The position numbers and the translations under genes are program-made. A DNA stretch of 64,000 nt from the NCBI GenBank assembly GCA_000146465.1, contig CP001948.1, one strand, 5' to 3'. This document shows, in pieces, positions 9,708-51,274 of the stretch. Position 1 is the first letter of the stretch, and each line of letters opens with the position of its first letter. Under the pieces are notes generated by a model, which was given only the letters and a program-made list of their open reading frames with translations, did no database searches and was not told the DNA's origin.

Positions 9708-10388
9708 TTATTTTTCCACACATTTGTTCATCATCGAAAGCACTTCCTCGCTTGCAACCCCAAGAAGCTCATCCCTCTCGTTTCGAGCAAGGCTACTCTT
9801 TACTTCCCTGTATTCAAGGAAGGTGTTGTAATCCTCGTCCCCAATACAGCTCACCATACTCATTTGGCTGTAGAGTCTCGTAACATTCTCAAGCTCCAAA
9901 CAGACCTCTGTAATCCTTCTGGCCAGGCCGTCCACAGACTCAGAACATTCAAGAAGAGATCTATACCACTCTTCCCTATATCTTTCAACCTCAATGCTTT
10001 CCCTCACTCCTTCAATCTCTGCTCTATAATAATCCTCAGACTCTAGTACATTCATCAGATCGTCCGTGATCGTCTGCAGATCCACCGTCACAACAACATC
10101 GCTCACTCTCCTCTCCGGTTGGAAAGAGCTCGGAAACCTAAGAATATTTCTCAAAACAAAGTTTGAAAATATAAAGTAGTTTCGACGAAAAGACTCCAAT
10201 ATCGTCCCTGACATTCGATGTATCTTTTTTTTGCCAAGAAACGATAGCTTCTCAATCCCTTCCTTCAGAATCCCTTCTATCTCCCCCTGTAGCTCAGAAA
10301 CTAGGGTCACAGGTGCAAATCCAAAGAACTCAATCTCTTCCTCGCTTCCCATCCTCAGGGTCAATTTTCTTTCCCCATTCTTATCCAA
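9708..10388 (-). CDS. Hypothetical protein, 226 aa
   Basis: ORF tightly packed between Rad50 and the next gene. No motif recognised. Confidence 0.35.
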   Translation of the reverse strand: MDKNGERKLTLRMGSEEEIEFFGFAPVTLVSELQGEIEGILKEGIEKLSFLGKKKIHRMSGTILESFRRNYFIFSNFVLRNILRFPSSFQPERRVSDVVVTVDLQTITDDLMNVLESEDYYRAEIEGVRESIEVERYREEWYRSLLECSESVDGLARRITEVCLELENVTRLYSQMSMVSCIGDEDYNTFLEYREVKSSLARNERDELLGVASEEVLSMMNKCVEK

Positions 10389-10393
10389 GACAA

Positions 10394-11521
10394 TTAAATG
10401 ATAAAAAGAACCTTCTCCTTTAGTATCCGCAACCCAGTACTATTCCACTCTTTATCTGTCATCCACATCTCCTTGATGCAGTCCAGCCCTGAAAACACTC
10501 CCATAACATTCATTATCATATCTTCGGCTGAGTCCGGATACATACAAACCTCAGGATAAATCCCACACTCCTCGAAGACCTTTTTTAGAGATGTCTCTGA
10601 CAACAGAGTTCCCCCATGGTTAAACACTATCACCTTACCTCCTATCTTCTTCATCTTTTCCTTACTAAGGACATGGTTTATTCTCTTGCCTATAATCTCA
10701 TAGATGTCTCCCTTTTCATCATACATCTTTAAATGCATCTTGAAGTGCTCCTGAGGATCTACATCTGGATGGCATTCGTTCTCCTTCTGGTGCTGTTGCT
10801 GAAAGTGTGTTTCCATCTTCTCCTCGGTCTCGTCCTTGTAATCACATTTCCCACAAGAAAAGATATTTTTCTCCTCAAACACCTTGATCTTGTTGAACTC
10901 GTCGACAAAGTCTATAGAGTCGGCAAGCTCAAATCCCTTGTTGCTTTCTTTAGATACACAGATCCCATCCAGCATCCAGAAGTCTTCCACAAGACACACC
11001 GTCGTGTAGTTTTCATAGACATTCACCACAACACAGTTTGGTGAAAGAGTTCCGATCGCTTGGGAAAGACTCCGTGGCGTGATCAGAATCCCCTTGAATG
11101 ACAGGACATTAATGAAGAGGTTGCACATCGCCAATATCTCGGTCCTGCCCAGAAGATCTTGGAATATAAGAGAAACAAATGAGTTCTTCGGTTTTATCCC
11201 AAGTTTATGAAGTGCTCCAGAAACCTGGTTCCCCAGCCATCCAATGCATTCCTCAAGATTCCTAAATCTCCTCGTATTCATTCCCGTCGGAAAAAAGAAA
11301 TCCCCCAGATCAATGGACTCCGACTCCACAAGAAGCTTGTTGTTCCAAACCACAATGTGGATTATCTCCTCATCTGCCTTGTAGTTTCCCATTCTATACT
11401 TTTCGTCAACATAGAACGAGACATCGCTTCTCATAAAGAAGCTTTGTATGTTTTTGTTCGGCGTAGTTATTTGCTCAATCTTTGGAACTGTGCACAGTTT
11501 CGGGGTGTATTTAAGCGCCAT
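10394..11521 (-). CDS. Divergent actin-related protein (Arp family)
   Basis: Segments MCNLFINVLSFKGILITPRSLSQAIGTL...VVVNVYENYTTVCLVEDFWML resemble the actin core ETFN.PA.Y...LSLYASGRTTG.V.D.GDG...P.YEGY. The match is weak elsewhere. Confidence 0.4.
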   Translation of the reverse strand: MALKYTPKLCTVPKIEQITTPNKNIQSFFMRSDVSFYVDEKYRMGNYKADEEIIHIVVWNNKLLVESESIDLGDFFFPTGMNTRRFRNLEECIGWLGNQVSGALHKLGIKPKNSFVSLIFQDLLGRTEILAMCNLFINVLSFKGILITPRSLSQAIGTLSPNCVVVNVYENYTTVCLVEDFWMLDGICVSKESNKGFELADSIDFVDEFNKIKVFEEKNIFSCGKCDYKDETEEKMETHFQQQHQKENECHPDVDPQEHFKMHLKMYDEKGDIYEIIGKRINHVLSKEKMKKIGGKVIVFNHGGTLLSETSLKKVFEECGIYPEVCMYPDSAEDMIMNVMGVFSGLDCIKEMWMTDKEWNSTGLRILKEKVLFII

Positions 11522-11557
11522 GGGCTTGGGATTTGATATCTAAATGAACAGTCTTCC

Positions 11558-12199
11558 ATGCCCATGACCTCGAAATATTCTGGAGTCAGTTTAGAGAGTG
11601 ATGAAGAGGAAAAGATTCATCCCAACATAGACGAGAAGAGTTATAAGGAATGGAAAAGAAGACAGAGAGAGCTGAAGAGAAAGGAGCTGGAAAGGAGGCT
11701 TGAAGAGATCAACTCGGTTGAATTTCCGAGTAAAGAGCTGGCCGAAGAGAGAGAGGAGATAGAGAAGATTTTGAAGCCATCCTATGTATGCCTTGGCACC
11801 GAGTCGTTCCGGACCCCCTCTTCAAATGAAGAAAAGGACTATATCCAGGAGTTGAGCCACCTTATAGTTCACAACGAGTTGGACAATTTTATTGAGCTGA
11901 TGGACCAGTGTAAAATTGACATGGAAGAGTTCGAGGTTGTTGTCCTTCACAATCTAGCAGAGCAAATCAAGGAAGGAAACGATGCAGGCGGGCTTATACT
12001 TTCGAAGATATCCTTGTATGTCAAGTATGCCTTGTCGCATGGAAAGGAATTTCTCTTGAAGCTACGTGCCCAACTTACAAACAAAGAAAGGCGAAGGCAA
12101 TTTGAGGAAGACTGTAGAAAGGACTTTGAAGAAACAAGACGAATGTTCTTGGAGCAGTTTGGCACATTGGACTCTACCTGTAGCCAGACTCCTAAATAG
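11558..12199 (+). CDS. CDC37: Hsp90 co-chaperone Cdc37
   Basis: N-terminus SDEEEKIHPNIDEKSYKEWKRR matches the conserved Cdc37 start (...[22 protein letters not shown]), followed by a basic coiled coil. Confidence 0.65.
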   Translation: MPMTSKYSGVSLESDEEEKIHPNIDEKSYKEWKRRQRELKRKELERRLEEINSVEFPSKELAEEREEIEKILKPSYVCLGTESFRTPSSNEEKDYIQELSHLIVHNELDNFIELMDQCKIDMEEFEVVVLHNLAEQIKEGNDAGGLILSKISLYVKYALSHGKEFLLKLRAQLTNKERRRQFEEDCRKDFEETRRMFLEQFGTLDSTCSQTPK

Positions 12200-12226
12200 G
12201 GGTGCTAGGGACCTAGAACGAATCTT

Positions 12227-12655
12227 TTATTTTGTGTTTGTCTTTAAAGCTGCAAACGGCTTATATAAAAACTCATAACAGCAGGAGATGACAAAGAAGA
12301 CATAAAGCAGCCATGACTTACTGGAGTAGAGCAGAAGCAGCTTCACAACCATCGAAATAAACAGGAAATCAAATGCAACACTGACATGGCCCTTTCCGTT
12401 AAGAGATGCCCCGGGGCTCACCAGAGTTGTTGTCTTTCCGTCGTGAGAAATAACAGGCGTTGAGATTCTATAGAGATAATAAACAGCAAGTGCCTCGGGA
12501 ATGGATCTAACAAGATATACCAGGATGTTTTTCTCTTTGTTCATCAAATACACTGCAAGCGCACATATGTTGTACAGAGCTATGCTTCTTAATATCAACT
12601 TCCTTGTGGTTTTGTTTTTTTCAAAAACTCGAATCTGAGACTTACTTCCTCTCAT
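12227..12655 (-). CDS. Hypothetical small membrane protein
   Basis: 142-aa ORF with 3-4 hydrophobic segments. Confidence 0.3.
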   Translation of the reverse strand: MRGSKSQIRVFEKNKTTRKLILRSIALYNICALAVYLMNKEKNILVYLVRSIPEALAVYYLYRISTPVISHDGKTTTLVSPGASLNGKGHVSVAFDFLFISMVVKLLLLYSSKSWLLYVFFVISCCYEFLYKPFAALKTNTK

Positions 12656-12758
12656 CTTTGTAGGGCAGAAATAGTAAAAAATATTGATTTCCAGAGCATT
12701 TGTTTAATTCCATTTCCCAAGATAAAAATAGCCTTCCCAGAAGAGGAAAGCTTACATG

Positions 12759-13061
12759 CTATCCCCCTACTTGTGATGTTACCACTTCGAGTTCTTCATT
12801 GCCCTCAAAGCCGAGGTCGCCTGGGGTTTTCCCAGGATCGATATTCTTTCCATTAAACAATAGACGGAACTCCGAGCTGTTCTTCCCGACATTGGAAGAA
12901 AAGGCATCGAGTATCTTCTTGAATGTTGTAGCCGGCTTGACATTGAACACAAGCATTGTACCATCCTGGTCAATAAGCTTCAGCGGCATCTTTTCTGAGG
13001 AAGTTATTTGCGGGATATTCTCTTTGGTCTTGGATTCATTTCCAGAATCCGGCGATCCCAT
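12759..13061 (-). CDS. SMT3: SUMO (Smt3)
   Basis: Ubiquitin-like fold ending in a di-glycine (…TSQVGG-stop). LKLIDQDGTMLVFNVKPATTFKKILDAFSSNVGK...LLFNGKNIDPGKTPGDLGFEGNEELEV matches the SUMO consensus. Start taken at the internal M (MGSPDSG); the track ORF abuts the upstream gene's stop. Confidence 0.75.
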   Translation of the reverse strand: MGSPDSGNESKTKENIPQITSSEKMPLKLIDQDGTMLVFNVKPATTFKKILDAFSSNVGKNSSEFRLLFNGKNIDPGKTPGDLGFEGNEELEVVTSQVGG

Positions 13062-13103
13062 GGGGTTTCCATCCCACTTGTTTTTGGCCCTGTTTCCTCC
13101 CAA

Positions 13104-13826
13104 TTATCCCTCTTCCCTATCTTCCATCTTTTTTTTCTGGTTTCTTGGCTCCTGAAGCCTGTAGAGTGTGGAAGCTTCGCTGTAGTATGCATTGCCATCT
13201 CTTATGCAGAGAACCAGGAGATTGTCTATCTTTTGTGGTGAGCATGTGAAGACTCGTCCGTCGGACATACAGGCTTTCTTGAACAGCTGGGAAGACCCTT
13301 CTTCTAGAATGGTAAAAGAATCTTTTTGGAAGTCTATCCCGTCCGACTGGATAATGACACTCTCATCTTCCGTCGACGGAAAGAGACTGTAAACCTCTTC
13401 GGCCTTGATGTTCTCGTCTGTAGGGTGAACTATTGTGTTTACATCCTCGAAGGACTCTTGGATATATTTTTGATAGTCGAAGATCTTACTCATGCTTTTC
13501 TTTATCCTTTCTCTCTCCAGAGCCTCGCCTCTTCTTTCCAGCCCACTGGAAGCTCCAAGTCGATGCCCAGGCTTTCCCGTACTTGAGGCCTCCCTTTCGA
13601 TATAGTCCATGACCATTTCTACGAAGTCTATGTCCAAGGCTTCAAGAAGATCTGTATGTAGCCGCCTTGGCACAATCTTCTCAAGGGACCCGTCAAATGA
13701 GGTGAAGTCTCTTTTTATCTGAGGCTCAATGTAGCACATCCCAGGTGTTGGTGCGGGAGGTGCATTTGCCCAGCATATGCTCTCTTCAAGCTCACGGAAG
13801 GCTTTTTCTGGATCCATCTTGGGCAT
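13104..13826 (-). CDS. Hypothetical protein, 240 aa
   Basis: ORF with no recognised motif. Its stop is immediately adjacent to the SUMO ORF. Confidence 0.4.
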   Translation of the reverse strand: MPKMDPEKAFRELEESICWANAPPAPTPGMCYIEPQIKRDFTSFDGSLEKIVPRRLHTDLLEALDIDFVEMVMDYIEREASSTGKPGHRLGASSGLERRGEALERERIKKSMSKIFDYQKYIQESFEDVNTIVHPTDENIKAEEVYSLFPSTEDESVIIQSDGIDFQKDSFTILEEGSSQLFKKACMSDGRVFTCSPQKIDNLLVLCIRDGNAYYSEASTLYRLQEPRNQKKKMEDREEG

Positions 13827-48452: not shown

Positions 48453-49811
48453 GTGTCCCTAGAAGTGGAAAAGGAAATGAAGAGGCGGGCTTACATCTGT
48501 TTCTTTCTTGGGATTGCAACCTGCGAGATCTTTTTAACAACCATAAGACCGATTGACAACCCTAATGTTCTTATGGTTTCTGGAAAAAACGTTGTACTCA
48601 CGGCGAACAGGGAGGACGAGATGGCCACCTTCCGTGTCGAGACCCAAGACAGGAAATCCAGGTTCCTTGGAATAAAGTTTGGGAAACGGAAGCATACTGT
48701 TCTCATATCACCGGGGGACAACCCGAATCTTTATATGAAGTACAGTAAGTCGGATGGGAGGCCTACCATGGGGAAGAAAAAGAAGTACTGGGAATACAAG
48801 GAGATGAAGGATGGAGGCTACATGCTTAGTTCAAGCAAAAACAAGTGTTTGGGAGTGGTTGGGAATAGCTTCAGGATCTCCGAGTGTGGAACTGGAAAAG
48901 GCCAGGTGTTTGTTTTTGAAAGGAGAGACTACAGCGAATCTTCAAGCACTTCTAATTTTGAAGAGCAGATTTCTATTTCTTCGGAGGTTCCCTTGGTTCC
49001 TCCGGTCTCTCAAACTTCTTTGGTTTCTTCAACTTCTCGGTCCTCTCTTGTTTCTTCAACTTCTCCAACCTCTCTAACCTCTCGGATTCCTCAGTCTTCC
49101 TTTGTTTCTCAGACTTCTCCAACCTCTCGGGTTCCACAGGCAATCCAGGCCAGCCAGGCTTTCGAGGCATTGTTTCCATTTGATGAAAGTAATGACTCCG
49201 ATAGCAATAGCGACGACATGAAGCCCGTGTTTATTAATCTGGATATGAAGGACAAAAAGACAAATACAGAAACCCAGGAAAGCAGTTCTCCCATTTCGAT
49301 TTCAACGATGACAGTTTATGTATCTGTCACCAAGTCTCTTTCCGCAGGAGCGGTGTCTTCTTCACCAATAGTGACGATCATCGACAAGTTTCCGCCTGTC
49401 AGTGCCAAACTTCCTCCAAACGTGACGCTTATTCGGAACAGGATTGCATCTTCCGAGGAATCGCAGTCTTCTTGCGAGTCAAGTGATTCTTACTTGGGAA
49501 ATGAAACAGTATCTCACAAAAGTTCCAGCAGAAGCTTAGGAGGAGCCAAGAACGATGCAAATCTGGACTTTGATCTTGAGTTTTATCCAGAGCTGGGGAG
49601 GCTCCTAGACGATAGTATCCGCAAAAAGAAAGAAGAAGAGCTTCGGAAGGAAGCAACAGCTAAAAGGGCTCGAGGGAATCCTCTGGGCGAAGAAAGAAAA
49701 GACGGAGAGTTCTTTAGTGCCTTGGCATATTTAGATACCTCCATCCCAAATCCTTTACGCCAAAACCTAGCGGAAGCACAATCTGCCTGTGCAGACATTG
49801 GGCAAGTATAA
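48453..49811 (+). CDS. Secreted beta-trefoil (ricin-B-lectin-like) protein with a Ser/Thr-rich repeat stalk
   Basis: Signal peptide MKRRAYICFFLGIATCEIF. N-terminal domain with KCLGVVGNSFRISECGTGKGQVFVFE. Central S/T/P-rich imperfect repeats SQTSLVSSTSRSSLVSSTSPTSLTSRIPQSS... and an acidic C-terminus. Confidence 0.6.
   Translation: MSLEVEKEMKRRAYICFFLGIATCEIFLTTIRPIDNPNVLMVSGKNVVLTANREDEMATFRVETQDRKSRFLGIKFGKRKHTVLISPGDNPNLYMKYSKSDGRPTMGKKKKYWEYKEMKDGGYMLSSSKNKCLGVVGNSFRISECGTGKGQVFVFERRDYSESSSTSNFEEQISISSEVPLVPPVSQTSLVSSTSRSSLVSSTSPTSLTSRIPQSSFVSQTSPTSRVPQAIQASQAFEALFPFDESNDSDSNSDDMKPVFINLDMKDKKTNTETQESSSPISISTMTVYVSVTKSLSAGAVSSSPIVTIIDKFPPVSAKLPPNVTLIRNRIASSEESQSSCESSDSYLGNETVSHKSSSRSLGGAKNDANLDFDLEFYPELGRLLDDSIRKKKEEELRKEATAKRARGNPLGEERKDGEFFSALAYLDTSIPNPLRQNLAEAQSACADIGQV
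48990..49140 (+). repeat. Imperfect in-frame tandem repeats of ~27 nt encoding S/T-rich peptides
   Basis: Recurring units tcaaacttctttggtttcttcaacttctcggtcctctcttgtttcttcaacttctccaacctctc...cagacttctccaacctctcgg. Confidence 0.6.
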
Positions 49812-50502: not shown

Positions 50503-50568
50503 TTCCTTGTTTTGGAAAGATATTTAACTTGTGTTAAAACCTGTTCCGAAACAGTTTAAAGCTTTGTG

Positions 50569-50933
50569 TCAGAAGCAGGGCTGCTCCCCAGAGACATAAG
50601 TCAAGTCGGAAGAAGAAAGTTTATTTCGCATTGTACTGCTTGACCATGTTAATAAAAACCTTCCCTGCAGGCGTAGATGGGCATATGACCCTCCTGCAAA
50701 AATACGTCTGCATGACTTGCATTTCCATATTCCAACTGCCGTTCTCTTCACACTCTTCTTTCCACATGCCTCACAGCTGTACTTGGCCCTCTGTGTTTCA
50801 AGAACCGCTTTCATTCTCTTACGGAGAGTCGATCCATATCTTGCTCCGAAAGAGCCTGCAATCCCTACCTTCTTGGTTTTTCCCTATAAGTTAGTCTGCT
50901 TCAGAATCCCCTTGGTCCCAAGTCACTTACCAT
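50569..50933 (-). CDS. RPL43: Ribosomal protein eL43 (L37a), two exons: ATG at 50931-50933, intron 50884-50930, exon 2 from 50883 downward
   Basis: Spliced product [69 protein letters not shown] matches the eL43 N-terminus and C4 zinc ribbon. The track ORF lacks the first 27 residues. The 3' portion appears frameshifted; see findings. Confidence 0.85.
50884..50930 (-). other. Spliceosomal intron, 47 nt, immediately after the start codon of eL43
   Basis: mRNA sense: ATG|GTAAGTGACTTGGGACCAAGGGGATTCTGAAGCAGACTAACTTATAG|GGAAAAACC. The 5' splice site is GTAAGT, the branch point ACTAAC lies 5 nt before a 3' AG, and splicing restores the reading frame. Confidence 0.85.
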
Positions 50934-51274
50934 TTTGATGGGTAAAAAAAATTCTCCTTAAACCGCAATACTTGCAGGACACCTTCCAAGAGATGATGCA
51001 TCCGTCAGGAGCGGTCGTTTATCTTTTCCTCAAGAAATCCCTCCCCCGTCAGTTTCTTGAAACTTTCAATGTTCTTATTGATGCTTTCTATTAATCTATC
51101 TCCAAGTTCTATTTCAATTCCCTTTGCGGGATTAGAATTCAGGTGAGAAATAGCCAATCCTACGAGAGACAGAAGCATCCACATTGTTTACAGGCTTCCG
51201 TTACACTAAATAGTCTGTGTTTTGGATCATTCATTTCAAAACTCGATACATCCAAAAACAACTTGGGTTTACTA

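What the first reader, a model, noticed from the sequence alone, without database searches (positions are those of the whole stretch)
50600..50700. Apparent 1-nt frameshift in the 3' part of eL43
After the zinc ribbon (...[11 protein letters not shown]) the annotated frame continues as [15 protein letters not shown]..., a 36-aa tail unlike any eL43. In the mRNA sense the local sequence is tat gcc cat cta. Inserting one C in the CCC run (plus-strand ggg at ~50689-50691) gives [24 protein letters not shown]-stop. That aligns to yeast and human eL43 (GGAYTVSTAAAATV / GGAWTYNTTSAVTV, matching at S-T and A) and yields a normal ~89-aa protein ending at ~50621. The cause is either a homopolymer sequencing or assembly error, a strain-specific indel, or a real programmed frameshift.
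Basis: partly seen in the sequence, partly recalled or inferred. Interest (0 to 1): 0.6.

Follow-up and report, generated by a model that had tools for sequence, protein, structure and literature searches.

The report
One-base assembly error in eL43 gene
The apparent frameshift in this microsporidian ribosomal protein gene is one missing C in an old reference assembly; every newer assembly of the species and every related species has the base and encodes a normal protein, so it is ordinary.

Summary
The window is Encephalitozoon intestinalis, and its as-is eL43 product equals the 2010 ATCC 50506 annotation. The frameshift is really in the sequence. As written, the minus-strand eL43 (RPL37A/L43) gene gives a 105-aa protein. 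Its last 36 residues match nothing. The next frame holds a conserved 19-aa eL43 C-terminus.

The cause is one missing C in a run that should be CCCC. A newer E. intestinalis isolate assembly matches the window over 63.6 kb with no substitutions and one difference, this base.

The repaired 88-aa protein equals the one annotated on four other E. intestinalis contigs. I infer these are the telomere-to-telomere re-assembly of the same strain and three further isolates. E. cuniculi, E. hellem, E. romaleae and an unnamed relative are all in frame and share the same TAA stop. Conservation collapses after that stop.

There is no slippery site and no downstream RNA structure. The 2010 assembly used 31-bp reads, Velvet with hash value 19, and 40x coverage. 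This is a reference error, not a programmed frameshift or, most likely, a strain variant. Interest is low.

The parts
50931..50933 (-). eL43 exon 1, which is the ATG start codon only
   Evidence: Sequence. The splice reconstruction reproduces P0004 exactly. The position is conserved in all orthologues.
50884..50930 (-). 47-nt intron with GTAAGTGA at the 5' end, an ACTAAC branch point, and a 3' TAG
   Evidence: The 5' splice site, the TAAC core of the branch point and the 3' TAG are invariant across all seven aligned sequences, which represent five taxa (alignment A1).
50682..50883 (-). Exon 2 up to the lesion. It encodes the N-terminal arm and the CxxC...CxxC zinc ribbon (Cys 38, 41, 56, 59).
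   Evidence: Pfam PF01780 covers model positions 1-68. The four cysteines are invariant in alignment A2.
50679..50681 (-). The lesion: a CCC run in mRNA sense (plus-strand GGG) that is CCCC in the newer E. intestinalis assembly
   Evidence: This is the only difference in the blastn comparisons of the window with L001 and L006. It is also the only gap in the coding part of alignment A1.
50621..50678 (-). True C-terminal coding segment (...[18 protein letters not shown]) with the true TAA stop at 50621-50623. It is out of frame in the window as written.
   Evidence: The TAA is conserved in all orthologues. The tail aligns to E. cuniculi ribosome chain 7qep_P3 and Vairimorpha 6rm3_LPP.
50569..50620 (-). 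Spurious read-through into the 3' flank, ending at TGA 50569-50571. This is the last part of the artefactual 36-aa tail.
   Evidence: Conservation collapses here, and the orthologues carry gaps that are not multiples of three. No homologue has this tail other than the 2010 annotation P0004.

Best explanation
The window comes from the 2010 reference assembly of Encephalitozoon intestinalis ATCC 50506. In that record one C is missing from a CCCC run in the single-copy eL43 (RPL37A/L43) gene. The real gene reads ...TAT GCC CCA TCT ACG... and encodes an ordinary 88-aa eL43 with a zinc ribbon and a C-terminal tail, ending at TAA 50621-50623. The 105-aa product with an unrelated 36-aa tail is an artefact of the missing base, carried into the GenBank and RefSeq annotation (ADM11859.1 / XP_003073219.1). 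Shown: the deletion, its uniqueness within 63.6 kb, the in-frame state of one conspecific DNA and of all orthologue DNAs, and the 88-aa annotation on all four other conspecific contigs. Inferred: that the missing base arose during sequencing or assembly rather than in the DNA itself.
For: (1) The spliced translation of the window equals P0004, the E. intestinalis ATCC 50506 protein on a 205,935-bp contig.
(2) The repaired 88-aa protein is 100% identical to P0001, which sits on four E. intestinalis contigs. Its accessions are UTX45613.1, KAL7345405.1, KAL7347308.1 and KAL7349315.1.
(3) PMC12697097 states that only one isolate had been sequenced before three new Illumina-only isolates at 303-361x. 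So the fourth contig (239,752 bp) must be the 2023 telomere-to-telomere re-assembly of the same strain, made from Illumina, Nanopore and PacBio data.
(4) DNA of GCA_051312775.1 matches window 394-64000 with 0 substitutions and 1 indel, which is exactly this C.
(5) E. romaleae, two E. hellem strains, E. cuniculi GB-M1 and a related Logan contig all have the full-length segment in frame with the same TAA. Their sequence diverges, with gaps that are not multiples of three, right after that stop.
(6) The Pfam match extends from 68 to 82 of 85 model positions after repair. The repaired protein aligns over residues 2-88 with eL43 of the solved E. cuniculi ribosome, 7qep_P3.
(7) The 2010 assembly used 31-bp paired reads, Velvet with hash value 19, 40x coverage, and PCR plus Sanger patching (PMC4355639). 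Single-base errors are plausible in such a procedure.
Against: I could not inspect any reads. I also could not view the DNA of the telomere-to-telomere ATCC 50506 assembly directly. The look-up tool collapses it with the isolate, so its CCCC state is inferred from its 88-aa annotation and the contig count. Illumina chemistry is not especially prone to errors in 4-base homopolymers, so the exact origin of the error is unknown; it could be Velvet, Consed editing or a Sanger patch. A genuine variant in the 2010 spore stock is therefore not formally excluded.
Confidence: 0.93

Rival explanations
1. The indel is real. The spore stock sequenced in 2010 carried a CCC allele, either fixed or as a heterozygous or subpopulation variant. 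That allele produced an eL43 with its C-terminal 19 residues replaced by 36 unrelated ones, and it was later lost or was never present in the re-sequenced stock.
For: The base is truly absent from the deposited sequence. Nothing here gives access to the 2010 reads. Because the lesion lies after the zinc ribbon, a truncated or altered tail might be tolerated.
Against: By inference, the same strain re-sequenced with three technologies gives the 88-aa protein. Three other isolates also do. An isolate with zero substitutions relative to the window over 63.6 kb differs only at this base. A real mutation would then have to be the sole variant, and it would have to disrupt a tail that is identical or near-identical across the genus.
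Confidence: 0.05
2. The genomic sequence is CCC and the normal protein is made by recoding. This would be a programmed -1 ribosomal frameshift, or transcriptional slippage, at GCC-C.
For: A -1 shift at this point would restore the conserved tail.
Against: Conspecific genomes simply have the extra C. All orthologues are in frame, and at this position they carry sequences without a C run, such as GTCACATCC and GCCAAGACC, so no recoding signal is conserved. U-AUG-CCC-A is not an X-XXY-YYZ slippery heptamer, and a 3-nt run is far shorter than known transcriptional slippage tracts; both statements rest on established knowledge, not on a test here. The 141 nt spanning the site and its downstream flank fold no better than shuffled sequence (z = 0.12, with 109 of 200 shuffles folding at least as well).
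Confidence: 0.01
3. A second small intron restores the frame.
For: The gene already has one tiny intron. A GT...AG pair exists locally, in gtcatatgcccatctacgcctgcag, which is 25 nt.
Against: Removing those 25 nt gives ...AGGEGFY-stop and deletes the conserved SYAPSTPA segment; I worked this out by hand from the sequence. Orthologues are collinear through this stretch with no intron.
Confidence: 0.005

Closest known systems
eL43 (RPL37A / L43 / L37Ae, Pfam PF01780) of Encephalitozoon species, e.g. E. cuniculi eL43 in ribosome structure 7QEP chain P3
   Same: After repair the protein has the same length (88 versus 89 aa) and is about 88% identical. It shares the four-cysteine zinc ribbon, the C-terminal ...TPAGK(V/I)FINMVKQYN(A/T)K tail and the intron right after the ATG. 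It also shares the gene neighbourhood: POB3/SSRP1, a small ORF, eL43, then a 217-aa gene.
   Different: As written in the window, one C is missing and the last 19 residues are replaced by 36 unrelated ones. Only the 2010 record shows this.
Single-base indel errors in early short-read reference assemblies, corrected by later re-assembly
   Same: It is an isolated 1-nt deletion in a short homopolymer. It is the sole difference from later high-coverage assemblies, and it creates an annotated protein with an aberrant tail.
   Different: Nothing is distinctive. The error mechanism could not be traced without reads.
Programmed ribosomal frameshifting (e.g. antizyme +1, retroviral -1)
   Same: The only resemblance is that two frames are needed to read a conserved protein from the sequence as written.
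   Different: There is no slippery site, no stimulatory structure, no conservation of the shift in orthologues, and conspecific genomes are in frame.

Membership tests
eL43 / Ribosomal_L37ae (PF01780) | Significant match to the family profile over its full length | tested here: met
   The repaired protein scores E = 3e-34 and 117.4 bits, covering model positions 1-82 of 85. The as-written protein covers only 1-68 of 85.
eL43 / Ribosomal_L37ae (PF01780) | Four-cysteine zinc ribbon (CxxC ... CxxC) | tested here: met
   C38, C41, C56 and C59 are invariant in alignment A2. They lie upstream of the lesion and are intact in the window.
eL43 / Ribosomal_L37ae (PF01780) | Conserved C-terminal segment after the zinc ribbon, as in eL43 of solved ribosomes | tested here: met
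   This is met only in the repaired frame. The repaired protein aligns to the end of 7qep_P3 and to residue 88 of 89 in 6rm3_LPP. It is not met by the as-written frame.
eL43 / Ribosomal_L37ae (PF01780) | Orthologous position (synteny) and intron position shared with other Encephalitozoon eL43 genes | tested here: met
   POB3/SSRP1 lies upstream and a 217-aa gene downstream in E. romaleae, E. hellem and E. cuniculi. The intron directly after the ATG aligns in all of them.
Programmed -1 ribosomal frameshift site | Slippery heptamer X-XXY-YYZ at the shift point | tested here: not met
   The local mRNA is UCA UAU GCC CAU CUA, which contains no such heptamer.
Programmed -1 ribosomal frameshift site | Downstream stimulatory RNA structure | tested here: not met
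   The fold of 50560-50700 on the minus strand gives z = 0.12 against shuffles.
Programmed -1 ribosomal frameshift site | The frameshift requirement is conserved in relatives | tested here: not met
   All conspecific and congeneric sequences are in frame.

The most novel reading that the evidence does not exclude
The ATCC 50506 stock sequenced in 2010 really carried a CCC allele of eL43, perhaps as one allele of a diploid or as a culture subpopulation. If so, a microsporidian ribosome could tolerate replacement of the conserved eL43 C-terminal tail by 36 unrelated residues.
Probability: 0.05. Interest if true: 0.3.

Novelty: not a real feature. Interest (0 to 1): 0.06.

Why it matters
The biological significance is small. 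The practical value is curation. The RefSeq and UniProt entry for E. intestinalis ATCC 50506 eL43 (XP_003073219.1 / ADM11859.1 / E0S824, 105 aa) carries a false C-terminus. It should be replaced by the 88-aa sequence (UTX45613.1). Anyone using the 2010 reference for ribosome modelling, proteomics databases or studies of protein-length reduction in microsporidia would be misled by this entry. The comparison also shows that the 2010 assembly is otherwise very accurate here, with one error in 63.6 kb.

Tried and rejected
1. A second intron restoring the frame. The only local GT...AG candidate (25 nt) gives a premature stop and deletes conserved residues. Orthologues are collinear through the stretch.
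2. Programmed frameshift or transcriptional slippage. There is no slippery site, no structure and no conservation.
3. Read-level proxies. I looked up the exact exon-2 ORF products, the 64-aa repaired and the 81-aa as-written versions, in the 15-billion-protein collection. I hoped for contigs assembled from public sequencing runs, but neither is present.
4. The 105-aa product in the gene-position index. P0004 is not on record there, so the 2010 record itself could not be re-fetched.
5. The DNA of the telomere-to-telomere ATCC 50506 assembly. The look-up tool collapses it with the near-identical isolate ('similar places not shown'), so its state is inferred from its protein annotation.
6. Other assembly differences in the window. 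There are none across window 394-64000.

Full report
**What is there**

The window has about 43% G+C and closely packed genes. Its proteins match Encephalitozoon intestinalis exactly.

The eL43 (RPL37A/L43) gene lies on the minus strand. It consists of an ATG at 50931-50933, a 47-nt intron at 50884-50930 (GTAAGT ... ACTAAC ... TAG), and exon 2 from 50883.

Read as written, the spliced gene gives a 105-aa protein. After ...[11 protein letters not shown] it continues [36 protein letters not shown] and stops at TGA 50569-50571. The neighbouring frame reads [19 protein letters not shown] and stops at TAA 50621-50623.

One detail was wrong. The C run in mRNA sense (plus-strand GGG) is at 50679-50681, not about 50689-50691.

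**Is it more than chance?**

Yes. Pfam PF01780 (Ribosomal_L37ae) matches the as-written protein over model positions 1-68 of 85, at 105.4 bits. It matches the one-C-repaired protein over 1-82 of 85, at 117.4 bits.

The repaired 88-aa protein aligns over residues 2-88 with eL43 of the solved E. cuniculi ribosome (7qep_P3, E = 1.3e-48). It aligns to residue 87 with Vairimorpha necatrix eL43 (6rm3_LPP). The 36-aa tail has no counterpart in any homologue.

**Where the sequence comes from**

The as-written product is identical to P0004. That is ADM11859.1 / XP_003073219.1, '60S ribosomal protein L37A (L43) [E. intestinalis ATCC 50506]', on one contig of 205,935 bp. This is the 2010 reference.

The 2010 reference was built from 31-bp paired-end Illumina GAIIx reads. 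It was assembled with Velvet at hash value 19 and 40x coverage, and finished with PCR, Sanger sequencing and Consed (PMC4355639).

**Comparison within the species**

The repaired protein is 100% identical to P0001, 'ribosomal protein L43 [E. intestinalis]'. P0001 sits on four contigs, with accessions UTX45613.1, KAL7345405.1, KAL7347308.1 and KAL7349315.1.

PMC12697097 reports three new isolates: ATCC 50507, 50603 and 50651. They were sequenced with Illumina only, at 303-361x. The paper states that only one isolate had been sequenced before.

The fourth contig (239,752 bp) is therefore, by inference, the 2023 telomere-to-telomere re-assembly of the same strain, ATCC 50506. That assembly used Illumina, Nanopore and PacBio data (PMC10158259).

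I fetched DNA of one isolate assembly (GCA_051312775.1, CM119895.1) in five overlapping pieces covering window 394-64000. Across those 63.6 kb there are no substitutions and exactly one difference. It is an extra base that turns the window's GGG at 50679-50681 into GGGG, which is CCCC in mRNA sense.

A second isolate (GCA_051312795.1, contig prefix JBLUPK, which the paper's table assigns to ATCC 50603) shows 5 substitutions in 21 kb. So real variation exists in the species, and it looks like substitutions rather than indels.

**Comparison across species**

A DNA alignment covered the window, the isolate, E. romaleae, two E. hellem strains, E. cuniculi GB-M1 and an unnamed Encephalitozoon-like contig from a public run. 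In the coding region the only gap near the site is the window's missing base (alignment A1).

At that position the other species read GTCACATCC, GCCAAGACC or GTGACGGTG, so no C run or slippery motif is conserved. All of them stop at the same TAA. Immediately after it, identity drops and gaps of 3, 5 and 6 nt appear. The region that the 105-aa reading runs through is therefore non-coding.

The protein alignment tells the same story.

**Rivals**

- *Programmed -1 frameshift or transcriptional slippage.* There is no X-XXY-YYZ heptamer. A 3-nt run is far too short for slippage. The 141 nt spanning the site and its downstream flank fold no better than shuffled sequence (z = 0.12). Conspecific genomes simply contain the base.
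- *A second intron.* The only candidate is 25 nt long. Removing it yields a premature stop and deletes conserved residues.
- *A real allele in the 2010 spore stock.* This cannot be formally excluded without reads. It would have to be the only variant in 63.6 kb, it would have to hit a genus-wide conserved tail of an essential protein, and it would have to be absent from the re-sequenced stock of the same strain.

**Verdict**

This is a single-base deletion error in the 2010 reference record, carried into its annotation. The true gene encodes an ordinary 88-aa eL43. I put the probability at about 0.93. Its only real consequence is for database curation.

**What I could not do**

I could not inspect reads, and I could not view the telomere-to-telomere ATCC 50506 DNA directly. 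Exact look-ups of the exon-2 ORF products among proteins predicted from public sequencing runs found neither version.

Noticed in passing
window 50563-50576 (minus strand): A 14-nt motif, GCTTCTGACACAAA, lies about 45 nt after the eL43 stop and about 60 nt upstream of the next gene's start. It is nearly invariant in E. intestinalis, E. romaleae, E. hellem and E. cuniculi, while the surrounding intergenic sequence has diverged. The window holds no other exact copy, and the one 2-mismatch copy is within chance expectation. It may be a 3'-end or promoter element.
   Followed up: partly
window 51005-51184 (minus strand): A 59-aa ORF sits between POB3/SSRP1 and eL43. Gene callers report a product of 58-60 aa at the same position in E. 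intestinalis isolates, E. hellem and E. cuniculi, and 61 aa in the unnamed relative. It has no Pfam hit. It appears to be a conserved small protein of unknown function.
   Followed up: no
L013 and L014 (Logan contigs from SRR21023580 and SRR21023579): Contigs assembled from public sequencing runs carry the same gene order (POB3, small ORF, eL43, a 213-aa gene). Their eL43 is only about 79% identical to that of E. intestinalis and differs from all named Encephalitozoon species here. They seem to come from an unnamed or unannotated relative.
   Followed up: no
L004 (Logan ERR13302946), matching window 10231-13491: A 3.3-kb contig from a public run is 99.94% identical to the window, with 2 substitutions. 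E. intestinalis DNA is therefore present in that sample.
   Followed up: no
window 48453-49811 (plus strand): This ORF (annotated as 444 aa in newer assemblies, no Pfam hit) has a serine- and threonine-rich, loosely repetitive central region (SQTSLVSSTSRSSLVSSTSPTSLTSR...). It looks like a possible secreted or surface protein.
   Followed up: no
window 394-64000: Apart from the eL43 base, the 2010 assembly is identical over 63.6 kb to an isolate assembled independently in 2025. Another isolate (contig prefix JBLUPK, assigned to ATCC 50603 in the paper's table) differs by 5 substitutions in 21 kb. Diversity within the species is very low.
   Followed up: yes
L009 908-1518 (E. hellem GCA_029215505.1): The gene downstream of eL43 is called as 258 aa and overlaps the end of eL43. 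The other E. hellem and Encephalitozoon records give 217-220 aa. This is probably a start-codon annotation difference.
   Followed up: no
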